Below are positions 4,509-14,463 of a stretch of 64,000 nt of DNA, piece after piece. Numbering within the stretch: the stretch's first letter is position 1; each line of letters starts with the position of its first letter. Both the position numbers and the translations under genes were made by a program. The DNA comes from an uncultured virus (IMG/VR IMGVR_UViG_3300022178_000001). Taxonomy: Duplodnaviria; Heunggongvirae; Uroviricota; Caudoviricetes. The stretch is from the IMG/VR virus record IMGVR_UViG_3300022178_000001; one strand, given 5' to 3'. Below the pieces are notes generated by a model. The model saw nothing but the letters and a program-made list of their open reading frames with translations, was not told where the DNA came from and did no database searches.

Positions 4509-4585
4509 GGGCTTTTAGCTCAGATGGTTAGAGCATCCGACTCATAATCGGCAGGTCCAAGGTTCAAATCCTTGAAGGCCCACCA
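4509..4585 (+). tRNA. tRNA with CAT anticodon (probably tRNA-Ile2; elongator Met possible)
   Basis: GGGCTTT/AAGGCCC acceptor stem, D-arm TAGCTCAGATGGTTAGAGC, anticodon arm CCGA-CTCATAA-TCGG, GGTTCAAATCC T-arm, encoded CCA. Confidence 0.93.
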
Positions 4586-4586
4586 C

Positions 4587-4901
4587 CTATGGTACTCCAT
4601 CCAAAATAGTAATATTTGCGTCCGACCCAAGTATTGTTAATTCTACCTTATAGCTAGGAACTACTACTTGCACATCAAACGTATCAACCAAGATACTATC
4701 AACACTATAAGAAGACGGGGCAGTAGATCGTACTGATACACTGGCTTCAATATTCGTAGGGTTTGCAGTTACAATTGCAGAGTACGTCCCTGCAGTTGTA
4801 ATCTCGATATCTTGTGCAGAGTAATATTTATCAAAAATACCCCCTCTCCAACCACGAGTTGCAAGGGATATTCTCCTACCAATGCCAGTATGGCTACTCA
4901 T
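4587..4901 (-). CDS. Hypothetical protein (accessory structural module)
   Basis: 104 aa, TAATG-coupled to the upstream gene; beta-strand-rich. Confidence 0.7.
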   Translation of the reverse strand: MSSHTGIGRRISLATRGWRGGIFDKYYSAQDIEITTAGTYSAIVTANPTNIEASVSVRSTAPSSYSVDSILVDTFDVQVVVPSYKVELTILGSDANITILDGVP

Positions 4902-5518
4902 TACTCTTCTCTTGAAACAATAGTAACTTCGTTACTAGGATTAGTAATATTCATTTTCAGAGCAGTACCTGTAGTAATACTCTCATCAGTAATAATTTGA
5001 GGATTATCTTTATCAAGCCCGAGAGACCTCCAAACTTCAAGAAGGCGGGTTTCCGTTTTCACGCCCCCTGCAATAGAAACGGTTGGGAGAGAGGATCGAG
5101 TTAATGCAATAGTTACTCCGCTCTGAGGATTTACAGGATTGCCTCCCTCTTCCCGAGTATAAATATTACCTACAATATCAAGAATATAACCAGAAAGGTT
5201 TAAATCAGCAGGAATCCAAGGCTGTATTCTCCATCCGTTTTCAAGAAAGTAAGAATCTCCCAAAGACGTAGTTTCGGTAATAGGATCTCCCCCAGTGGTA
5301 GTGATAGCTTCGTACCACTGAGAGTTTTTCCTTTGAAGCTTCCACTCTTTCCAATTACTATAGATATCGAGTTTTACATCGATAGATCCCTCGCCAGGAT
5401 TAACTCGAATAAGCCTGTTCTCTCCATCAAATGTAACCTTCATACCCCCTGGAGTATCAGGCAAGTTTCGAGGAGCCCAATAGGACCATTCTCCGTAATT
5501 GAAAATTATGCTCGGCAT
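4901..5518 (-). CDS. Putative virion structural protein
   Basis: Start MPSIIFNYGEW at 5518; FDGENRLI..DIYSNWKEW..GDPITE..YFLENGW is similar to a domain of the 8929..11148 protein. Confidence 0.7.
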   Translation of the reverse strand: MPSIIFNYGEWSYWAPRNLPDTPGGMKVTFDGENRLIRVNPGEGSIDVKLDIYSNWKEWKLQRKNSQWYEAITTTGGDPITETTSLGDSYFLENGWRIQPWIPADLNLSGYILDIVGNIYTREEGGNPVNPQSGVTIALTRSSLPTVSIAGGVKTETRLLEVWRSLGLDKDNPQIITDESITTGTALKMNITNPSNEVTIVSREE

Positions 5519-5519
5519 T

Positions 5520-8270
5520 TTACTGTTCTCTTTCCTTCCACTGAAGATTGATTCGAATATTATGTTCTTCATCTTCTACAGGACGCTTGATAGGATTCCA
5601 CATGAAGGTCCACGCTGCTTGAGGCGGAGGAGTACCAATGATTAGACTACCTGTACCTTGAGTACCACTACCTTGAACTGCATTTAGTACGGTATTATAG
5701 TCTAATGGGTAAGAGTTAGCTGAAGTAGTAAATACATCTAATGAAAACACATGATGATGGTAGCTAGTAGCTGTACCTGCAGTCTCTTGACCAGCAACTA
5801 CATCTGTAGCATAGGTAAAATTATGATCGTCTACTACAGTAACTGCTACTACTTCATATAAAGTATAAGTACCGGTAATCCCAGGAAAAGGAGCTACAAG
5901 AACAATTTCAGTATCAGTAATTGTAGAAATTTGTCCGTGCCTATCATCAACTTCGATAAAATCCCCCGGAGTTAATCCAGTTGCAGTAAACCCTATTCCT
6001 GTAATAGTAGCACTTCCATTAGTAACTACAGCATTTGCGACACTAGCAGTATTGAAACTAGTAGTACCTGAAATCCTTACCTTATCATTACTAGTAAAAT
6101 GGTGTTGCCACGAGCGAACAGAGGCAGTGCCTCCGGCAGCAACAATAGTATCGATAGAGCGTACTCTTTCTATACAGAACGAGTCTCCTGCTACAACCGA
6201 ATCAATTGTAGTAGACTGTCTATCCCCTACTAAGAAATAATCAGTACTAGTACCTCTATAACCTAGCTCCAAGATTCTAACACGTTCATTAATTGCAGCT
6301 CCGGACTTAAAGATAATATGATCATTTTGATGGCCGTGATGTTCCCCAGTATAATTAGAACTTAATTCTCGAGTAGCCCTATCGTCTTCAAGCAGCTCAA
6401 TAGTAGTATATAGTTGAGCTTCATCTCTATCCTGCAAAGCCATATTATAGGTATTACCATTTAAAAACGTTAAACCCGGCTCCGTAACTCCTGAGACTGT
6501 AATAGGTAGACGATCTTCAAAGTAATGAACATTAGTTTGAAAAATAGGGTTATTTATTACTTTAATTGTAACTGCAGTTCCTGTACCATAAGGATTATCG
6601 TCCCCCACAATAGATAATAGCTCTTGAGATCTAACAGAAGTACTAGCCTCTGAGTTTACTCGCTCTGTACCATACTGAATTGTATTAAATAGTTCAGTAA
6701 AGTTTAAATCTGTAGGGCCTTTTATAGGTCTTCTAAATATTTCTGGTCCGTGCCCTTCATGACGCGCATCCTTGTCGATTTCAGTAGTAGCGTACCCAAC
6801 TGGTTTATAGTTTTCTCCCCTCAGTAGACACTTCCGGAATATTCTAATTTCTCCACGAACATCGTCCCCATTTGCATCATAAGCATCAATAGTTAAATAC
6901 TTAGGTAAATATAAAGAATGATTATCAATACCGTTAATTTGTGCGACTGGTCTCATAGAAAATAAATAATGAGTAGAGTTATCGACAGAGTCTGTTGTTA
7001 CGGTAAAGCTTTCATCCAGGCTTCTAAAAGCACCTTCTTCTAAAATATTAGTATTACCCGTACCTTCGGAGAAGACCCCCGCACCATACGCAAATATAGA
7101 TTTTTCTCCTGTAGCTAAAGTACCGTCCCAAACATTGGTAGCCCAGCAAATAGGCAGATTAGGATTACCAGTAGCATTATGAAGCCAGGAGCCAGCCGCT
7201 CCCCCGTTTCCCATATCCATCTCATGACATACAACTCGTTGGCCTTCATAATACACACCCCATCTAATTCGTCCACCTCCTAAATACTGATAATCAATCC
7301 AATATTGGTTAGACCTATTAACTAGTATTTCCATGCCGGAAGGATTCGAACCACCCCCGTTACCTGACAGATTATCTTTATTCCACATAGCTTGCGGAAT
7401 AATACTATCTGTTTTTATACCTCCAAAAGTTTTACGATGAACAAGGTATAAACCGTTTCCTTTCCCATCTCCACCATTAGTGAGATCGCGTCCAAGCTGA
7501 AAGAAAAAGCCGTCGGCACCTTCAAACATACCCCATCTACGAATACACCCATCAACGCCTGTGTCTCCTATTCTAGTCGCCATAACCACTAACTGATTAG
7601 CACCAGGAATGTAAGGGTGGTAAAGATTACTAGTATGAGTGGACTTTGATCCAGTAATATCTTGAACTTTAACTTCTACTGCTTGATATGCTGGAATATA
7701 TTCAACAGTTCCCCCATTACCTAAACTATTTGAAAATTGGTCTAATAAAGCATTTTTGGTGAATAAATACTGAGCAACTAACTGTTTATTTGAAGTACGA
7801 AGCTCTCCATATTGAGTTAACTCAGGCGCGCCTTCTTGGAAGGTAACCTGCCCTGAGCCAAACCTATCTACGTTCCACCCAAACTCTGGATTATCATATC
7901 CCATAATGTTTTGGGCGGGTATATAAATATCTTCCGCAGGTCCATTAACGTAAGCTATAATTTGTCCGTCTATACCACCAAATCTTATTTCCTGATTATC
8001 CTCAGGAGAATAGCCTAAGTGTTTTGCGGTAGAATTATAGTGTACAGAAAGCACCCCTGTAGTAGACGTTTCTTGTTTTATTCCATGCACATGGAACATA
8101 AAGTCACTGTTACTATCAAGCACAGCCCCCGTTAGTTGGTACATAGAACCGACTTGCCAAATATGCGTTAATTCTTTGTTATCATACCTAATTTCAGCAG
8201 TGTGAATCATGTATACACGATCACCTGTACTTTCCGGAGGTATTCTAGTATATTTGCGTTCCCCTGCCAT
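5520..8270 (-). CDS. Large fibre/appendage-like protein with lectin/jelly-roll-like domain
   Basis: 916 aa; GGAG RBS; WIDYQYLGGGRIRWG motif recurs in phage structural proteins; G/T/S-rich beta C-terminal part. Confidence 0.7.
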   Translation of the reverse strand: MAGERKYTRIPPESTGDRVYMIHTAEIRYDNKELTHIWQVGSMYQLTGAVLDSNSDFMFHVHGIKQETSTTGVLSVHYNSTAKHLGYSPEDNQEIRFGGIDGQIIAYVNGPAEDIYIPAQNIMGYDNPEFGWNVDRFGSGQVTFQEGAPELTQYGELRTSNKQLVAQYLFTKNALLDQFSNSLGNGGTVEYIPAYQAVEVKVQDITGSKSTHTSNLYHPYIPGANQLVVMATRIGDTGVDGCIRRWGMFEGADGFFFQLGRDLTNGGDGKGNGLYLVHRKTFGGIKTDSIIPQAMWNKDNLSGNGGGSNPSGMEILVNRSNQYWIDYQYLGGGRIRWGVYYEGQRVVCHEMDMGNGGAAGSWLHNATGNPNLPICWATNVWDGTLATGEKSIFAYGAGVFSEGTGNTNILEEGAFRSLDESFTVTTDSVDNSTHYLFSMRPVAQINGIDNHSLYLPKYLTIDAYDANGDDVRGEIRIFRKCLLRGENYKPVGYATTEIDKDARHEGHGPEIFRRPIKGPTDLNFTELFNTIQYGTERVNSEASTSVRSQELLSIVGDDNPYGTGTAVTIKVINNPIFQTNVHYFEDRLPITVSGVTEPGLTFLNGNTYNMALQDRDEAQLYTTIELLEDDRATRELSSNYTGEHHGHQNDHIIFKSGAAINERVRILELGYRGTSTDYFLVGDRQSTTIDSVVAGDSFCIERVRSIDTIVAAGGTASVRSWQHHFTSNDKVRISGTTSFNTASVANAVVTNGSATITGIGFTATGLTPGDFIEVDDRHGQISTITDTEIVLVAPFPGITGTYTLYEVVAVTVVDDHNFTYATDVVAGQETAGTATSYHHHVFSLDVFTTSANSYPLDYNTVLNAVQGSGTQGTGSLIIGTPPPQAAWTFMWNPIKRPVEDEEHNIRINLQWKEREQ

Positions 8271-8280
8271 TATTTACTCC

Positions 8281-8856
8281 TTATTTTGCTGTAGACAGCA
8301 ACTTCATAATTTTTGCCTTGAAATCATCGTCAAATTCATCGATAGGCTTCAAGTCTAATTCGGTTTGTATACTGGTAGCCAGTGGGGCCTTAGCGGGTTC
8401 TTCAATTGTAGGCATTACTGGTTGGTTAATTTTAGTACTCAAATTGTTAACTTCTAACCGCTTACTTGCATAGTTAATGCTTATATTCCATTTCGTTTCG
8501 TAGCCGTTCCAGTCAATTTCTTGGCCTAAATAGTTTAAATCTACCATTTGATACACGTTTCTTTTCCGTGCGGGAAGTCCTTCTAGAATACTCTCTAATG
8601 CAAGCCCCATTTCCACCTTAGTCTTAATCTCAATTAATGTCGAGTGGATAAATGTCTTGTCAGTTTCAGGAGCAATTCTTACAATATTATTTTTTGTTAC
8701 AAAAAGATCCCAAGTTAAGGAAAAACCTGCCCAAGTATCCCCAGGCTCCATAACTTTTTCAATTTCTGCAATAATTAAATTTATTTCGTCATTAAACTGA
8801 GTAACACCATTTTTCATGGTATACGCAGTGTGTCTAACTTTCTTTCTTGAAAACAT
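8281..8856 (-). CDS. Hypothetical protein
   Basis: 191 aa with GAGG RBS. Confidence 0.75.
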   Translation of the reverse strand: MFSRKKVRHTAYTMKNGVTQFNDEINLIIAEIEKVMEPGDTWAGFSLTWDLFVTKNNIVRIAPETDKTFIHSTLIEIKTKVEMGLALESILEGLPARKRNVYQMVDLNYLGQEIDWNGYETKWNISINYASKRLEVNNLSTKINQPVMPTIEEPAKAPLATSIQTELDLKPIDEFDDDFKAKIMKLLSTAK

Positions 8857-8874
8857 ATTTTTTCCTCGTTTTAG

Positions 8875-8900
8875 AAAAGGGGGGAAGAAACCCTCCCCCC
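8875..8900 (-). terminator. Intrinsic terminator
   Basis: G6/C6 stem with minus-strand U-tract just after the 8929..11148 gene. Confidence 0.65.
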
Positions 8901-8928
8901 GAATTTACATCTAATATTAAACTATAAC

Positions 8929-11148
8929 TTAGACAGTACCTTCGTCGTAGTTACGTTCAAGAGCCGCAATAAGTGAAACGATGTTTGACTTAGAACGGTT
9001 AATTGTACCAGCAGATGATACGTACTGAGCTTCATTCAATCCAAGTGCCACAACGATAATTGGAGCAGGAGTAGAAGCAGAACCTGCCCCACGCTGAACG
9101 TTACCATCATAGTCATATGAGAAGGTAGCAGAAGCACGCTTAGTTGGCCAAGAAGGGTTTACTAAGCCTGAGATAGGAGTACTATCCTTGTCTTGTACAA
9201 TTACAGCCAGTGGCGTATTGTAGTTTTTTCCTTCTGGAGAAGTAGCAGCCAAATCATTTTCGAAGAATACGAAGAACTTAGCAAACTCATCATCCTGCAA
9301 CGTAGAGCCAAAGTTGACGTTAAGCGTTGCTAAGAAGTTGAATAATCGAGTTCCGTTCTGAGCATCAACGAATTCAATAGCGTTAGTATCTGCTTCCGCA
9401 AAACTATCGATATATACACCTGATGCGGTTACAAGAGTGTCCCCAACAAATCGGAGTAAGCTATCCCCTGTTTTACCAACAACAGTACCAGTACCATCGG
9501 CATCGATATCGCTATTTTGACGTAAGAAGTACTGTACTTTTTCATAGATATCTACAGTAGTATTTACACCACCAGCGCCTTCACCAGCAACGTTAGTATC
9601 CCCATCAATGATTACAGTAAAGGGATAGTTAGTGCCCGCAATTTCACGTGAGCCTGCGAATACTTCCCAGTTAGTAGGATCACTTGGAGGAGCAGTAGCA
9701 GTATTGACACCAGTCTTATTGATGTACCACTCACCTGCTTCTTGAATAACATCACCAATTGCATAGTCGCCAGCCCCAGTAGTATGTGTAGCGCCTGAGA
9801 TCTTATCGTTAGTAACAAGATCACCGTTAGCGTCACGAACATAAGTGATAGTTGTAAGATCATAAGAAGGACGAACAGCAGAACCACCGGTATCAGTACT
9901 GCTATTAGCAGTTGCTACTGTAGGGGTCATAGTAAAGGTTGTATCACTAGGAATCGACAGAATTGCCGTAGTAGTTTCGTTGAAATCAGTCTCAGAAGTA
10001 AAACCAGTAATAGTCAAAACTTCCCCAATAGCTAAGCCGTGAGCACTAGGAGTAGTATAAGTATGGATAGTACCGTCAGAAGAAGCACTAACACTAACAC
10101 CACCAGAAAGGAAGCCTTCGAGATGAGGTACCTTCAAGTCTGCCTGAGACGTAAGAGGGAATCGATATGCTTGATACGTTACTGAGGATACACCGATATC
10201 ACTGAAGCGTGAAGTACCGTATGTAGACTGCCACTCACGAACAAACAACTTCAGAATATTAGTTGCACCTGTTTGATCCCGATAATCCGCTCCACCATTT
10301 TCGTACATTTGAACTGCCTGATTAACTGCACCAAACTGTTTAAAGTTAAAAGTATTGGTAGTAGAAGTTTCATCTTGTACTTGCTGATAATATACTTGGT
10401 CAGTTGCCCCAAGAATACCAAGAGAGATAATAGCAGCCCATTCTTCTTGAATGACGTTAGACGTATCTTTAACAGACCAACCACCATCACGAATTAATTC
10501 AATAGTAGTGGCACTAACAGTACCAGAAGTTTCAACTTTATCCCAGTTCCAGCCGTTGATCATTTCGAACTGCTCGTCCGTAATTGGACCCATTGGGAAA
10601 GGGAATTTAATCAAAAGTGCGTCAGACTGCCAAGCATCTTTGAGAGATGAGTAGATAGCTTTCAAAGAAGCCCCATCATCGCCTAAGTTACCTTGAACAA
10701 CCAAACCAATTTTCTTGAGGTCCCAATCAATAATAATTTCGTCAGCAGTAATAGCCGCAGAAATATTGTCCGTACCAGTAGTTAAGTCAAAATTGGTGCC
10801 TGCTTGAGAAGCCCCGCCGGTTACAGCAGATTGGGTAAGAGTTGCAGCAGCAGCAGTATTTGCCCCACCAACTGTAGTTACTGTAAAACCAGTAACAGCT
10901 CCGGTGCTTACAGAAGTAACAGTTACTTTAGAACCATCAGATAATTCAATTACATTATCTACGACATACCCCGAACCAGCAGTAAAAGTTCCGTTGTTGC
11001 CTACGTTATCGTAGTCAGCAGCGGCTGTTTGTCCATTAATAATATCACCACCAATACTGGATGCGATAGGAGTGGATACTGTCGGTACGTGTACTGACAA
11101 TTGATCCGGATCCTTCTGGACGTTAGAAGTTTGAAAGAAATTAGCCAT
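8929..11148 (-). CDS. Large structural-like protein (likely abundant)
   Basis: 739 aa, T/G/S/D-rich, GGAG RBS, followed by a terminator as seen for high-copy virion proteins. Confidence 0.75.
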   Translation of the reverse strand: MANFFQTSNVQKDPDQLSVHVPTVSTPIASSIGGDIINGQTAAADYDNVGNNGTFTAGSGYVVDNVIELSDGSKVTVTSVSTGAVTGFTVTTVGGANTAAAATLTQSAVTGGASQAGTNFDLTTGTDNISAAITADEIIIDWDLKKIGLVVQGNLGDDGASLKAIYSSLKDAWQSDALLIKFPFPMGPITDEQFEMINGWNWDKVETSGTVSATTIELIRDGGWSVKDTSNVIQEEWAAIISLGILGATDQVYYQQVQDETSTTNTFNFKQFGAVNQAVQMYENGGADYRDQTGATNILKLFVREWQSTYGTSRFSDIGVSSVTYQAYRFPLTSQADLKVPHLEGFLSGGVSVSASSDGTIHTYTTPSAHGLAIGEVLTITGFTSETDFNETTTAILSIPSDTTFTMTPTVATANSSTDTGGSAVRPSYDLTTITYVRDANGDLVTNDKISGATHTTGAGDYAIGDVIQEAGEWYINKTGVNTATAPPSDPTNWEVFAGSREIAGTNYPFTVIIDGDTNVAGEGAGGVNTTVDIYEKVQYFLRQNSDIDADGTGTVVGKTGDSLLRFVGDTLVTASGVYIDSFAEADTNAIEFVDAQNGTRLFNFLATLNVNFGSTLQDDEFAKFFVFFENDLAATSPEGKNYNTPLAVIVQDKDSTPISGLVNPSWPTKRASATFSYDYDGNVQRGAGSASTPAPIIVVALGLNEAQYVSSAGTINRSKSNIVSLIAALERNYDEGTV

Positions 11149-11233
11149 TTAGTTTTTCTCCTAATAGCTTGCCCTAAGTCTAGGACATTATAATATATAC
11201 TTGTTTATAAGTATATCTAAGTAGCCTCGACTG

Positions 11234-12907
11234 TTAGACCGTTCCCGAATCATATTGCCTGTCAGAACTCTGAAAGAGCGATATAGTCGTATCCGCACTA
11301 GCAGTCAAAACTTTTTGAACTCGAAAGAATTCAAAGTTTAAATTATGTGCTACAATTACTACATTAATATCTCCTCCGGAGGTATCATATGAGCTTGTAA
11401 CTTTATACTTTCCAGCATTTACTGGATCTGCTGCTATACTATCAAAAGTACTAGAGTCGGGGGTAGCCCCAACTCTTTCAGCCCCTACTAATTCCGTATA
11501 GGTTAAAGGATTATTTAAATCAGTATAACTGTAGACTCTTAGCTCAGTTTCATCTTCGATATTATCAATAACCAGTGCTTTTGCTGCGACAAAAACTACA
11601 GAAGAGCCCGCACCCACATTAGTTACAGTAGGTGTATTACTAGTACCATTCAAAGCAACTGTAATTTCAAACCCACTTGTATTTCTTATAGCGGCACTAG
11701 TAGACCCATTAGCCCCAAAAGTAGTATTATCAAATACTATATTTGTAAAAGTAATCGAGGTATCGGCAGTATAAGTAGTAGCTGTAAATTCAAAAGCGTG
11801 CCCAGAGCCTACATTAATTATATTACAGTTATTTATTCCAGTAGTGGTTCCGAAAGCAGCATCTGTAATCATGGCTACTGCAGAAGCGGAGCGGGGTCGT
11901 ATATCTGCATTTTCTATTGAGCCTCCCCCTAAAGTAAGGGCTATTGCATCTACTGTGCCTCCAGTAATTTCTACACTACTATTCATAGTAATAAGTCTTA
12001 ATCCTAGCAAAGCACAGGAGCTAATTGTTGCTGTTCCTGTAGTGCCTGTAAAAATTAAGTCAGGTCTATTAGTAGCAATAGATACTGCTGAAGACTGAAA
12101 GTTGCAGTTAGTCATACTAAAAGTAGTAGAAGCATTTCCAAGGTTTACTGTCCAACCAAGCCACGCAGTATCAATAGCTGCTTGATCTACGTGAATAAAA
12201 GTTTTATCTGATTCTGAAAAAGTTGTTGCAATTGCAGTACCTGCAGTAGCTCCTTCCCCTATTGTAAGTCGACAGTAAAATAAATCTGCTCCTGCTTGAG
12301 TTACTAATAAACCTTTATATCCGTTAGTTTTGTTAGACTCTGTAGTTCGAATAAAGGCTATAGTATTATCTGTAGTTCCATTTATATAGAATGGAGAGAC
12401 TTGACTGCCCACAAATGTAATAAAATTATCTAGAAAGGTATTAGGTTTATTACCAGATCCGGCATCGGTATTACTTACTCGAAACCCTATGGCTTCGACA
12501 TTACTAGTAGTAATACTTCCTGATAGTGAGGGTACGTCACACCAAATAGGAGTATAACCTCCTGTAGCCGGATAGAAAGACCCTAAATTAACAATACCAT
12601 TATTGCTACCATCATGAATTAAGACATCATAAGAAGTAAGAGTACTACCTACAGAGGTATTTAACCAGTAGAGAGTAGCGCTACCAGAGCTTGATAAATT
12701 TCTGCTAGCATTATTGCTCGCACCTACGGCTTGAATAAAGTTATTTTCATTGTCAAAACGAGTTTCGATACAACCAGTACCTTGCAATTCAAATCCATCC
12801 GCTACGTTAACGTCTATAGTATTACCCCCTCCAGGGGTATACTCAAGGGTGCCGACATTGTCGGCATCCATGTTATTGAATACTGTGGTACGTGTACCGA
12901 AAGCCAT
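11234..12907 (-). CDS. Structural-like protein with probable beta-helix region
   Basis: 557 aa, N/T/S/G-rich beta-repeat-like segments; C-terminus parallels that of the 739-aa protein. Confidence 0.7.
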   Translation of the reverse strand: MAFGTRTTVFNNMDADNVGTLEYTPGGGNTIDVNVADGFELQGTGCIETRFDNENNFIQAVGASNNASRNLSSSGSATLYWLNTSVGSTLTSYDVLIHDGSNNGIVNLGSFYPATGGYTPIWCDVPSLSGSITTSNVEAIGFRVSNTDAGSGNKPNTFLDNFITFVGSQVSPFYINGTTDNTIAFIRTTESNKTNGYKGLLVTQAGADLFYCRLTIGEGATAGTAIATTFSESDKTFIHVDQAAIDTAWLGWTVNLGNASTTFSMTNCNFQSSAVSIATNRPDLIFTGTTGTATISSCALLGLRLITMNSSVEITGGTVDAIALTLGGGSIENADIRPRSASAVAMITDAAFGTTTGINNCNIINVGSGHAFEFTATTYTADTSITFTNIVFDNTTFGANGSTSAAIRNTSGFEITVALNGTSNTPTVTNVGAGSSVVFVAAKALVIDNIEDETELRVYSYTDLNNPLTYTELVGAERVGATPDSSTFDSIAADPVNAGKYKVTSSYDTSGGDINVVIVAHNLNFEFFRVQKVLTASADTTISLFQSSDRQYDSGTV

Positions 12908-13263
12908 TAAGGATTAGCTCTGGTAACGTCCTTGACTACTTTAACTTTTCCAATAAGTAGAGTTTGAACATTGCCCGAATCATCAACTTGTTGAATATCA
13001 TAGTTATAGGTTTTAGGGTCTAAGGCTCCTGTAAGGGTGCGGGACGCATTAAGATAAACAATTCCTACAGCAGCACTTGGCCCTATAGGAACAACAGAAA
13101 CTTGAAGATCTCCCGGGTCGGGATCATCAATATTTGCTTTTAGAGTAAGGGTGTAAGTATAGTTTGTTACATCCGTAATAGTGCCGTCAGAGCTGATTAC
13201 TAATTTAATAGTCCAATCGTCTCCGCGCACTAAAGGATTTAAATCTTTTGCTGTATATGACAT
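12907..13263 (-). CDS. BppU N-terminal-like baseplate/adaptor protein
   Basis: RGDDWTIKL...DVTNYTY...YNYDIQ...TLLIGKVKVVKDVTR pattern. Confidence 0.6.
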   Translation of the reverse strand: MSYTAKDLNPLVRGDDWTIKLVISSDGTITDVTNYTYTLTLKANIDDPDPGDLQVSVVPIGPSAAVGIVYLNASRTLTGALDPKTYNYDIQQVDDSGNVQTLLIGKVKVVKDVTRANP

Positions 13264-13320
13264 AGTAGGTTCACGGTGCCTGGCCAATAATTATTAGCCT
13301 AGTAAAACATTTCATAGCAA

Positions 13321-13349
13321 ATTATAGCAAGTGTCACCTACTATGTCAA
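13321..13349 (-). promoter_or_regulatory. sigma70 promoter driving the 4587-13263 block
   Basis: Minus strand TTGACA-17-TATAAT with extended -10 TG. Confidence 0.85.
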
Positions 13350-13974: not shown

Positions 13975-14463
13975 TTAATTTTTCCCGTCTGTATAAAAAA
14001 TATGAGTACCTATTTTATTAGTAATAGTCATATTCTTAGTCCAGACTGGAGCTTCTATATAATCAGCATGATACCACATAGCTCCGTCCGTTACATCCCA
14101 TATTAAACGATTAGCGTAGAATAGCTTCCATGCTAGGGATAAAGCTTCTGAGTACGCATCATGGTCATTAATAACCTTACGTGATGGTTTTGAACAATAC
14201 CATGTAAATTGGCACTTTCTTTTGCTTTTCTGAGTAACAACCCTACATATAGTATTAGGAAATCTATTAGATGTTACTCTATTAATAGTAACATACCCTA
14301 CTGCTGTTCTACCCTCTAAGCTTTGGTTTCTACTCTCAAAATAAATATTATTAGCTAAACAAAATATTTCATTTTTGTCGTTAGACGTCATGTAAACTTC
14401 TGCATTCACTGACTGGCTAGATATAGCTAATAGTACTGCTGTTATTGCTTTTTGAAAAACCAT
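13975..14463 (-). CDS. SleB/CwlJ-like cell wall hydrolase (Hydrolase_2)
   Basis: Signal peptide; CLANNIYFESR..VGYVTINRV..FPNTIC.VV.Q..CQFTW; YHADY; IGTHIFY. Confidence 0.92.
   Translation of the reverse strand: MVFQKAITAVLLAISSQSVNAEVYMTSNDKNEIFCLANNIYFESRNQSLEGRTAVGYVTINRVTSNRFPNTICRVVTQKSKRKCQFTWYCSKPSRKVINDHDAYSEALSLAWKLFYANRLIWDVTDGAMWYHADYIEAPVWTKNMTITNKIGTHIFYTDGKN

What the first reader, a model, noticed from the sequence alone, without database searches (positions are those of the whole stretch)
4587..13349. Second, self-contained structural operon of partly paralogous proteins: candidate undescribed virion appendage system
Seen: seven co-directional genes (118, 557, 739, 191, 916, 205, 104 aa) with their own promoter, ~27 kb from the tail operon and opposite to the flanking early genes. 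The 739-aa and 557-aa proteins share a C-terminus (IIVVALGLN..SLIAALERNYDEGTV vs VVIVAHNLN..SLFQSSDRQYDSGTV). The 739-aa and 205-aa proteins share a domain (IDWDLKKI..IYSSLKDAW..GPITDEQFEMINGW vs FDGENRLI..IYSNWKEW..GDPITE..YFLENGW). The block starts with a BppU-N-like adaptor, and the 739-aa gene is followed by a terminator as for high-copy subunits. T5 has no such block, and the main operon already has a full tail tip. Inference: a polymeric head or tail filament with a major subunit, related minor subunits and a lectin-like tip.
Basis: partly seen in the sequence, partly recalled or inferred. Interest (0 to 1): 0.75.

Follow-up and report, generated by a model that had tools for sequence, protein, structure and literature searches.

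The report
Syn5-type phage horn gene cassette
This seven-gene block in an uncultured T5-like marine phage is an enlarged copy of the gene set that builds the unexplained "horn" on cyanophage Syn5, and it probably makes an extra sugar-binding fibre on the virus particle.

Summary
The seven co-directional genes, their promoter-like site and the hairpin after the 739-aa gene are all present. The block has a known relative. The 739-aa protein matches Syn5 gp53 (43% identity). The 557-aa protein is of the gp54 class and the 205-aa protein of the gp55 class. Syn5 gp53 and gp54 are reported to form its "horn".

In 55 non-redundant viral loci the three classes travel together. A gp55-class gene is present in 53 and a gp54-class gene in 53. 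The domain grammar is strict: body+C-module, N-domain+middle+C-module, N-domain+body.

This window carries the "long form", with four more genes. One is a 916-aa protein with a lectin/GH16-like jelly roll. A terminator-like hairpin follows the gp53-class gene in 14 of 22 long cassettes, which fits a high-copy subunit.

The "BppU-N adaptor" label is not supported.

This scan has already reported the same cassette on other DNA: 14 notes in at least 12 genomes.

The parts
13321..13349 (-). Promoter-like site TTGACA-17-TATAAT with TG extension, just upstream of the first gene
   Evidence: 12 of 12 consensus positions; sequence read. It is preceded by a weak hairpin at 13382-13358, after the MazG-like gene. 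Function not tested.
12907..13287 (-). w126: small protein, 126 aa from TTG or 118 aa from the ATG at 13263; optional first gene of the cassette
   Evidence: phrog_1084, unknown function, E 5.7e-17. No BppU_N hit; only weak Ig-like hints at E 0.03-0.06. Present at the head of the cassette in 9 of 55 non-redundant loci.
11234..12907 (-). w557: gp54-class protein, a variable body (aa 1-470) plus the conserved C-terminal module (aa ~500-557, ending ...DRQYDSGTV)
   Evidence: An HMM seeded on the w557-family C-terminal module (gp53-class proteins excluded) and iterated over neighbouring cassette proteins finds Syn5 gp54 at E 1.5e-23 and Panino CDS 098 and 099. hhalign against the gp53-class C-terminus gives E 3e-6. 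The family has 30 proteins, all unnamed.
8929..11148 (-). w739: gp53-class protein, the putative major subunit. Conserved N-terminal peptide (aa 1-17); low-complexity insert (20-136); N-domain (~137-235); beta-barrel (340-430); CBM5/12-like module (446-499); C-terminal beta-sandwich module (605-739)
   Evidence: BLASTP to Syn5 gp53: 8e-47 and 7e-43, 43% identity. 538 relatives at E <= 1e-3, with candidates capped. AF2 model pLDDT 69. VIA-align: Z 9.5 to the phi92 endosialidase barrel, Z 6.4-6.7 to CBM5/12 modules, Z 6-7.8 to pilin- and S-layer-type sandwiches. Pfam CBM_5_12 in 8 of 46 and E1_FCCH in 6 of 46 family members, but none in w739 itself.
8879..8900 (-). Terminator-like GC-rich hairpin with a T-rich tail, between w739 and w191
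   Evidence: A comparable hairpin follows the gp53-class gene in 14 of 22 long cassettes (12 with a T-rich tail), against 70 of 426 (32 with a tail) after other ORFs of the same loci (Fisher p 2e-6 and 6e-8; loci are not independent). Stem sequences differ between loci.
8281..8856 (-). w191: long-form accessory protein that always follows the gp53-class gene
   Evidence: No Pfam or PHROG family. An HMM built here finds it directly after the gp53-class gene in 22 of 55 non-redundant loci.
5520..8270 (-). w916: long-form protein with a conserved N-terminal 640 aa (lectin/GH16-like jelly roll at aa ~150-405), a variable region (~640-850) and a conserved C-terminal end
   Evidence: phrog_1645 'virion structural protein', E 8e-33. 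tblastn hit to an S-RIM32 gene annotated as virion structural protein. AF2 pLDDT 75.7. VIA-align Z 16.4/16.2 to GH16 glucanases over aa 158-404. No E-x-D-x(1,2)-E motif. Present in 21 of 55 loci. It is the most diverged gene against near-identical L005: 79% identity, against 91-97% for the other six.
4901..5518 (-). w205 (the ORF extends to 5572 = 223 aa): gp55-class protein, with the conserved N-domain (aa ~1-150 of the 205-aa form) and a short C-terminal part
   Evidence: BLASTP to Syn5 gp55 1e-8 and to Panino CDS 097 9e-11. 1672 representative proteins at E <= 0.001, with the match always at their N-terminus and homologues starting at M19. None of the 150 best carries the C-terminal module.
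4587..4901 (-). w104: small beta-rich last gene, seen only in close relatives
   Evidence: Only a weak Pfam hint (SpaA_4, E 0.07). Found in 5 of 55 loci.

Best explanation
The block is a long-form member of the gene cassette whose prototype is Syn5 genes 53-54-55, reported to build the 'horn' of that cyanophage. It most likely encodes an accessory, non-essential fibre or spike on the virion of this T5-like siphovirus.

Its core is three proteins with a strict domain grammar:
- w557 (gp54 class): variable body plus a conserved C-terminal beta-sandwich module.
- w739 (gp53 class): conserved N-domain, a middle part, and the same kind of C-terminal module.
- w205 (gp55 class): the same kind of N-domain plus a variable C-terminal part.

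The simplest reading is that the C-module of one protein docks on the N-domain of the next. That would give a polar chain, w557 then one or more w739 then w205, with w739 as the abundant subunit, since a terminator-like hairpin follows its gene.

Sugar-binding-type modules would let the appendage hold on to surface polysaccharides of the host or of particles before the tail engages. These are a barrel like that of endosialidases and a CBM5/12-like module in w739, and a lectin/GH16-like jelly roll without the catalytic motif in w916. w126, w191, w916 and w104 are long-form additions of unknown role (base, chaperone or extra binding unit).

Shown here: homology, synteny, domain grammar, fold resemblance and the conserved hairpin. 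Inferred: presence in the virion, docking, copy number, sugar binding, and the site on the particle. By analogy with Syn5 that site would be a capsid vertex, but this is open.
For: Homology to the Syn5 genes:
- w739 matches gp53 at 8e-47 and 7e-43; w223 matches gp55 at 1e-8.
- An HMM seeded on the w557-family C-terminal module and iterated without gp53-class sequences finds Syn5 gp54 at 1.5e-23.
- Syn5 genes 53 and 54 are annotated 'structural protein'.
- A commentary states that the horn sits at the vertex opposite the tail and is added after the tail.

Synteny in 55 non-redundant viral loci:
- A gp55-class gene lies downstream on the same strand in 53. A gp54-class gene is present in 53. The misses lie at or near contig ends.
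- All seven genes are colinear in relatives with 45-80% identity.

Domain grammar:
- 0 of 150 gp55-class proteins carry the C-module.
- No gp54-class ORF carries the N-domain.
- Shared modules: E 3e-6 and 2.8e-5 for the C-module, 2.2e-4 for the N-domain, against 0.21-0.86 for mismatched controls.

Copy-number hint: a hairpin follows the gp53-class gene in 14 of 22 long cassettes, against 0 of 22 after w191-like, 1 of 21 after w916-like and 1 of 56 after gp54-class genes, and 70 of 426 in the background.

Carbohydrate-type folds.

Virion link for w916: phrog_1645 and the S-RIM32 annotation.
Against: - No virion data exist for this phage, and its own assembly is not held.
- That gp53 and gp54 are the horn proteins rests on my recall of an abstract. 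The paper is not held; only its title was seen.
- The N-domain paralogy is modest (probability 45%) and failed with the first alignments.
- A distance-matrix test gave no clear pairing of C-modules with N-domains (partial r from -0.01 to 0.28).
- Gipson 2014 assigned Syn5 gp55 to capsid knobs, not the horn, from secondary structure alone.
- In one relative (L018) the cassette follows the central tail fibre gene J, and in 8 loci a collagen-like 'tail fiber' gene lies just upstream. A tail location is therefore not excluded.
- w739 itself has no Pfam CBM hit.
Confidence: 0.7

Rival explanations
1. The cassette builds side fibres on the tail (receptor-binding fibres attached near the tail tip or collar), not a head appendage.
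For: In L018, whose gp53-class protein is 48% identical, the cassette starts directly after a 2452-aa gpJ-like central tail fibre gene. In 8 loci the nearest upstream gene is a collagen-like protein of 'tail fiber' PHROGs. Variable bodies with beta-helix or coiled-coil Pfam hits occur on gp55-class proteins: 2 and 5 of the 33 scanned. Carbohydrate-binding-type folds are typical of receptor-binding proteins.
Against: None of the seven proteins matches a tail PHROG. In Syn5 the horn is at the vertex opposite the tail. In 9 loci the nearest neighbours are head genes: portal, prohead protease, terminase or major head protein. This phage's tail operon already has a J protein with a fibre-like C-terminal part and a separate fibre-like gene.
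Confidence: 0.18
2. The proteins are capsid decoration or cement proteins spread over the shell (as proposed for Syn5 gp55), with no filament.
For: Gipson 2014 assigned gp55 to knob densities on hexamers. phrog_1645 is filed under 'head and packaging'.
Against: That assignment rested on secondary-structure matching only. Proteins of 557-916 aa, and gp54-class bodies of up to about 2,500 aa (stop-to-stop frames), are far larger than known decoration proteins. The strict end-module grammar is not explained by this reading.
Confidence: 0.07
3. The products are not virion parts. They would be glycan-binding or glycan-cutting proteins released at lysis, or acting on the infected cell surface.
For: The block lies next to MazG-like and endolysin-like genes on the same strand and has a host-type consensus promoter. 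The jelly roll resembles GH16 enzymes.
Against: Syn5 homologues are annotated as structural proteins. No GH16 catalytic motif is present. No Pfam or PHROG enzyme family was found.
Confidence: 0.05

Closest known systems
Cyanophage Syn5 (Voetvirus syn5) genes 53, 54, 55: horn proteins gp53 and gp54, and neighbouring gp55
   Same: Homologues of all three classes lie on one strand. The same conserved C-terminal module is on the gp53 and gp54 classes, and the same N-domain on the gp53 and gp55 classes. They are late or structural genes with no other annotation.
   Different: The host phage is a T5-like siphovirus, not a T7-like podovirus. Gene order is 54-53-...-55, not 53-54-55. w739 carries a 115-aa low-complexity insert and a ~160-aa insert (barrel plus CBM5/12-like module) that gp53 lacks. 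Four further genes are present (w126, w191, w916, w104). The cassette lies among early-region genes with its own promoter-like site.
Long-form horn-type cassettes in uncultured viral contigs (for example L012, L022, L038, L046)
   Same: Same order: [w126]-gp54 class-gp53 class-w191-w916-gp55 class-[w104]. A hairpin follows the gp53-class gene.
   Different: Several of these sit between a collagen-like gene and a prohead protease, that is, in a head gene cluster. The bodies of the gp54 class and the C-terminal third of w916 differ.
Side tail fibres of lambdoid and T5-like phages (Stf/Tfa, T5 L-shaped fibre pb1); recalled, not searched by name
   Same: Accessory, dispensable, glycan-binding fibres with a conserved attachment end and a variable distal end. 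One relative has the cassette right after gene J.
   Different: There is no sequence-family match to tail-fibre PHROGs or Pfam families. The only experimentally placed relative (Syn5) is on the head.
Head fibres and surface adhesins of phage capsids (T4 Hoc, phi29 head fibres); recalled
   Same: Non-essential capsid-borne structures thought to give weak adhesion to surfaces.
   Different: No homology was detected. Here there is a multi-gene kit with an end-to-end domain grammar, not a single decoration protein.
Bacterial pili built by subunit-to-subunit docking (chaperone-usher or sortase pili); analogy only
   Same: The logic of tip, repeating major subunit and base. The major-subunit gene is followed by a hairpin. 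The C-terminal sandwich of w739 resembles pilin CnaB-type domains at Z 6-6.2.
   Different: No usher, chaperone or sortase is present and there are no secretion signals. Fold scores are in the range common for unrelated sandwiches. It is not a member of these families.

Membership tests
Syn5 horn-type cassette (gp53/gp54/gp55 classes) | A gp53-class protein | tested here: met
   w739 against Syn5 gp53: BLASTP 8e-47 (aa 137-340) and 7e-43 (aa 500-734), 43% identity; tblastn.
Syn5 horn-type cassette (gp53/gp54/gp55 classes) | A gp54-class protein: variable body plus the conserved C-terminal module | tested here: met
   Direct BLASTP of w557 to gp54 is weak (E 0.22). However, an HMM seeded on the w557-family C-terminal module, iterated without gp53-class sequences, finds Syn5 gp54 at 1.5e-23 and Panino 098/099 at about 1e-21.
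Syn5 horn-type cassette (gp53/gp54/gp55 classes) | A gp55-class protein (conserved N-domain) downstream on the same strand | tested here: met
   w223 against gp55 at 1e-8. The N-domain HMM scores 2e-41 on w223 and 4e-22 on Syn5 gp55. Present in 53 of 55 loci.
Syn5 horn-type cassette (gp53/gp54/gp55 classes) | Products are in the virion and form a horn at the vertex opposite the tail | not testable with these tools
   No virion data exist for this phage.
   The Pfam scan at E <= 0.1 lists only Poly_export, Cadherin_4 and He_PIG, all below their cut-offs. The PHROG hit is of unknown function. Fold-level likeness was not tested.
Glycoside hydrolase family 16 for w916 | Beta-jelly-roll fold | tested here: met
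   VIA-align Z 16.4 (3i4i, rmsd 2.8, 183 aligned) and Z 16.2 (3dgt, rmsd 3.4, 213 aligned) over aa 158-404. Lectins of the same fold score Z 12-13.
Glycoside hydrolase family 16 for w916 | Catalytic E-x-D-x(1,2)-E motif (motif recalled) | tested here: not met
   The motif does not occur anywhere in w916. The only acidic columns conserved at 80% or more in aa 150-405 are D250, D299, D326 and E402. It is therefore filed as lectin-like, not as an enzyme.
Carbohydrate-binding module family 5/12 for w739 aa 446-499 | Match to the Pfam CBM_5_12 model and fold | tested here: inconclusive
   8 of 46 family members match (best E 1.5e-4), but w739 itself has none at 0.05. Fold Z 6.7 (4ny2, rmsd 1.7, 47 aligned) and Z 6.4 (4tx8, rmsd 1.9, 47 aligned).
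Endosialidase-type C-terminal chaperone domain of phage fibres (Peptidase_S74; recalled) as the shared C-terminus | Sequence match to the Pfam model | tested here: not met
   No Pfam family for w557 or w739 at E <= 0.1. The modelled C-terminus of w739 is a beta-sandwich.
Intrinsic terminator after w739 | G+C-rich hairpin followed by a T tract | tested here: met
   Nine pairs, 7 G-C, loop of 4, tail TTTTCT; conserved in relatives. Termination itself was not testable.

The most novel reading that the evidence does not exclude
The gp54, gp53 and gp55 classes are a universal snap-together kit. The C-terminal sandwich of one subunit docks into the N-domain of the next, so that gp53-class subunits polymerise head to tail into a pilus-like filament. 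A gp54-class body caps one end and a gp55-class body the other. Podo-, myo-, sipho- and jumbo phages exchange this kit horizontally and swap its glycan-binding bodies. 'Horns' would then be a common, overlooked adhesion organelle of ocean phages. In this T5-like phage the filament would be extended by a fast-evolving lectin protein (w916).
Probability: 0.3. Interest if true: 0.8.

Novelty: new variant of a known kind. Interest (0 to 1): 0.6.

Why it matters
The Syn5 horn has been a structural oddity since 2007, with no known function and no solved structure. Profile searches of the PDB with these families found nothing meaningful.

Its genes turn out to be a conserved, mobile three-part kit. 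It occurs on viral contigs of 4 to 332 kb, next to head, tail or replication genes, and here in a T5-like siphovirus. That suggests extra appendages of this type are common.

The result also makes the question testable. The domain grammar predicts which ends touch. The conserved hairpin predicts which subunit is abundant. The lectin-type modules predict a glycan ligand. Cultured carriers exist for the experiments: Syn5, S-TIP28 and Maribacter phage Panino.

Six full-text searches of the held library found no paper that reports horn-gene homologues outside Syn5. Subscription papers are not covered.

Tried and rejected
Searches that found little or nothing:
- Megablast of the block against 50,697 phage records: no match.
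- The window's own assembly is not held. The nearest record, G001, is a 33.6-kb fragment with an identical 739-aa gene.
- Foldseek against the PDB with the w739 model: no match at E <= 0.001.
- Foldseek against BFVD gave only poorly superposed multi-domain hits.
- PDB sequence or profile searches with A1, A2, A3 and w916: none, or only designed TIM barrels at E 0.03 or weaker.
- Protein Atlas for w916 and w557: only unnamed viral clusters.
- The scan of 185,579 species genomes with the gp53 profile found only two MAG contigs.

Fold matches set aside:
- Foldseek's top matches for w916 are clostridial neurotoxin receptor-binding domains (E 1.8e-7). They have rmsd of about 23 A and 10% identity. 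I read this as the generic lectin jelly roll and nothing more.

Tests of the paralogies and of docking:
- The first profile tests of the N-domain paralogy were not significant.
- The mirror-tree test of which C-module co-varies with which N-domain gave partial r from -0.01 to 0.28 in 49 cassettes, with no permutation test. It is inconclusive.

Literature:
- Raytcheva 2014 and Pope 2007 are not held.
- The Panino paper reports podoviral morphology and halos but mentions no horn.

Rejected labels: BppU-N adaptor, GH16 enzyme, S74 chaperone domain, tail-fibre PHROG membership.

Cassette absence in a relative: L090 (MazG-like 66% identical) has no cassette in the 6.6 kb after that gene. The contig is only 24.7 kb, so absence from the whole phage is not shown.

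Full report
**What is there**

Seven ORFs lie head to tail on the minus strand between 13287 and 4587. Their lengths are 126 aa (118 from an internal ATG), 557, 739, 191, 916, 223 and 104 aa. The sixth is 205 aa if read from M19, which is where its homologues begin.

A perfect sigma-70-type site (TTGACA-17-TATAAT with a TG extension) lies at 13349-13321, just upstream. A G+C-rich hairpin with a T-rich tail lies at 8900-8879, between the 739- and 191-aa genes. A single tRNA-Met gene on the other strand (4509-4585) abuts the last stop codon.

The rest of the window is a siphovirus. It has a lambda-like tail tip (J, I, K, L and M-like proteins), a 1473-aa tape measure, and replication genes whose DNA polymerase is 45% identical to those of T5-like Vibrio phages. 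The tail genes start about 27 kb from the block.

The right-hand neighbours are a MazG-like gene, a 65-aa ORF and an endolysin-like gene. They are on the same strand as the block, so only the left flank is opposed.

**Identity of the core**

No nucleotide-level relative exists among 50,697 phage records. Translated searches do find relatives. The 739-aa protein hits six records: Syn5 gene 53 (two records), S-TIP28, Maribacter phage Panino, an uncultured phage and virus Rctr197k.

- BLASTP of w739 against Syn5 gp53 gives 8e-47 and 7e-43 at 43% identity, in two blocks.
- Between those blocks w739 has about 160 residues that gp53 lacks.
- The sixth protein matches Syn5 gp55 (1e-8) and Panino CDS 097 (9e-11).
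- The 557-aa protein matches Syn5 gp54 only weakly when compared directly (E 0.22).
- I seeded an HMM on the w557-family C-terminal module, left out gp53-class proteins, and iterated it over the last 75 residues of the neighbouring cassette proteins. It finds Syn5 gp54 at 1.5e-23 and both Panino neighbours.

So the block holds one member of each of the gp54, gp53 and gp55 classes.

Syn5 genes 53 and 54 are annotated as structural proteins. [quoted passage not shown] That these proteins are gp53 and gp54 is my recollection of the abstract, because the paper is not held.

A commentary that I read says the horn sits at the vertex opposite the tail and is added after the tail. Gipson 2014 tentatively assigned gp55 to capsid knobs, from secondary structure alone.

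**The two claimed paralogies**

The C-terminal ends of w739 and w557 align at both extreme C-termini:
- Whole alignments: E 0.0026.
- Domain-cut alignments: E 3e-6, probability 88%.
- Alignments drawn from 54 and 63 diverse sequences: E 2.8e-5.
- An HMM of the w557 end, searched against 1109 ORFs, hit at E < 0.05 only the C-termini of w557-like proteins, of the giant proteins next to gp53-class genes, and of gp53-class proteins.

The N-domain likeness of w739 and w205 runs from ...DxxxKxI... through YSxxK(D/E)xW to NGW.
- It was not significant at first (E 0.22; noise in HMM searches).
- With alignments from 53-55 loci it reached E 2.2e-4 over 67 columns, probability 45%.
- Four mismatched domain pairs gave E 0.21-0.86.

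I take the first paralogy as established and the second as probable.

**Distribution and grammar**

Family sizes:
- The gp53 class has at least 538 relatives at E <= 1e-3. None carries a name other than 'hypothetical protein', and they lie on contigs of up to 324 kb.
- The gp55-class N-domain has 1672 representative proteins. The match is always at the N-terminus, in proteins of 102 to 1107 aa.
- Of 33 longer gp55-class proteins scanned, 2 carry Beta_helix and 5 carry coiled-coil-type Pfam hits.
- The w557 family has 30 proteins and the w916 family 119.

A profile scan of viral contigs returned 77 loci. Together with the two annotated phage records and the window, 80 sources carry a gp53-class ORF. 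They collapse to 55 clusters at 90% identity of that protein.

Among these 55 clusters:
- A gp55-class gene lies downstream on the same strand in 53. The other two are cut by contig ends.
- A gp54-class gene is present in 53, as one gene in 50 and two in 3. The two misses are L078, where the contig ends 99 bases upstream of the gp53-class gene, and the 4.9-kb contig L053. Of the 56 gp54-class genes, 40 lie upstream of the gp53-class gene and 16 downstream.
- No gp54-class ORF carries the N-domain.
- None of the 150 best gp55-class proteins carries the C-module.

The grammar is therefore: body+C-module, N-domain+middle+C-module, N-domain+body.

**The long form**

Additional genes occur in a subset of the 55 clusters:
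- w191-like: 22 clusters, directly after the gp53-class gene.
- w916-like: 21 clusters.
- w126-like: 9 clusters.
- w104-like: 5 clusters.

All seven genes are colinear in relatives down to 45% identity.

A G+C-rich hairpin lies within 70 nt after the gp53-class stop codon in 14 of 22 long cassettes, 12 of them with a T-rich tail. For comparison:
- 0 of 22 after w191-like genes.
- 1 of 21 after w916-like genes.
- 1 of 56 after gp54-class genes.
- 7 of 53 after gp55-class genes.
- 70 of 426 (32 with a tail) after other ORFs of the same loci.

Fisher tests give p 2e-6 and 6e-8. The loci are related, so these values are only indicative. The stems differ in sequence between loci, which suggests that the structure is what is kept.

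**Folds**

The w739 model has mean pLDDT 69 and is good from residue 340 onward. It shows:
- A small barrel at 340-430, like the one inserted in the phi92 endosialidase (Z 9.5, rmsd 2.2, 80 aligned) and the E1 FCCH domain.
- A 50-residue module at 446-499, like CBM5/12 of chitinases (Z 6.4-6.7, rmsd 1.7-1.9, 47 aligned).
- A C-terminal sandwich at 605-731, like S-layer and pilin domains (Z 6-7.8). Scores in that range are common among unrelated sandwiches.

Pfam finds CBM_5_12 in 8 and E1_FCCH in 6 of 46 family members, though not in w739 itself. The last ten residues and the N-domain are of low confidence in the monomer model.

The w916 model has pLDDT 75.7. It has a concanavalin/GH16-type jelly roll at about 150-405 (Z 16.4 and 16.2; lectins at Z 12-13). 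It lacks the GH16 catalytic motif, which I recalled rather than looked up. Foldseek's neurotoxin binding-domain rows reflect the same generic fold, at rmsd of about 23 A.

w916 has conserved ends and a variable region at about 640-850. It is the most diverged gene between the window and the near-identical L005: 79% identity, against 91-97% for the other six genes.

**Where on the virion**

This is open. I scanned the 91 nearest neighbouring ORFs of 180 aa or more; 34 had a PHROG match at E <= 1e-15:
- 10 are head or packaging genes, in 9 loci.
- 8 are collagen-like 'tail fiber' genes.
- 1 is a gpJ-like central tail fibre, directly upstream in L018.
- 7 are DNA-metabolism genes.

The cassette therefore moves between contexts. 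A relative with a 66%-identical MazG-like gene has no cassette in the 6.6 kb after it. Only two contigs among 185,579 species genomes, both from MAGs, hold a gp53-class gene by this scan.

**Mechanism**

My best reading (0.7) is an accessory virion fibre of the Syn5 horn type. I infer that its subunits join through the shared end-modules, with w739 as the abundant unit, and that its carbohydrate-type modules give reversible adhesion.

A distance-matrix test was uninformative. Transcription could not be tested either.

**Earlier notes of this scan**

Fourteen notes in at least 12 genomes describe the same cassette in T4-like, P22-like, crAss-like and other phages, and they propose the head-to-tail filament. 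I took the socket-and-plug wording from there.

Here I tested the homology, the synteny and the shared modules independently. New here are the long-form statistics, the conserved hairpin, the lectin fold of w916 and the T5-like host.

Noticed in passing
window 4509-4585 (+): A single tRNA-Met (CAT) gene abuts the stop codon of the last cassette gene. It lies between the converging plus-strand small genes and the cassette.
   Followed up: partly
L018 241-7596 and 7694-15361: In a relative whose gp53-class protein is 48% identical, the same long cassette starts directly after a 2452-aa gpJ-like central tail fibre gene. In the window the two are 27 kb apart.
   Followed up: partly
L090 10001-16997: This contig has a MazG-like gene 66% identical to the window's. 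It has no cassette in the 6.6 kb after that gene, only small ORFs, almost all on the opposite strand. This may be an empty site.
   Followed up: partly
window 10741-11088 (w739 aa 20-136): A Gly/Thr/Ala/Ser-rich insert of low model confidence separates the conserved N-terminal peptide from the N-domain. It occurs only in this lineage. It is weakly similar to the C-terminal part of Syn5 gp58 (E 0.037).
   Followed up: no
window 5520-8270 against L005 12879-15626: w916 is 79% identical between two otherwise 91-97% identical cassettes. The differences are spread along the whole gene. This looks like allele replacement or fast evolution.
   Followed up: partly
L011 16116-16883: A second w126-like domain sits at the N-terminus of a 256-aa ORF downstream of the cassette.
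   Followed up: no
L014, L025, L015, L026 (genes upstream of the gp53-class gene): gp54-class ORFs can be giant: stop-to-stop frames of 2495, 2499, 1736 and 1808 aa. They still end in the same ~60-residue module.
   Followed up: partly
window 13975-14463 (-): The endolysin-like protein (phrog_938) begins with a hydrophobic, signal-like stretch (MVFQKAITAVLLAISSQSVNA). It may be a secreted or signal-anchored lysin.
   Followed up: no
L091, L092: The only two hits in species genomes are contigs binned into an Aenigmatarchaeota MAG and a Kapaibacterium MAG. They may be viral contigs mis-binned with cells.
   Followed up: no
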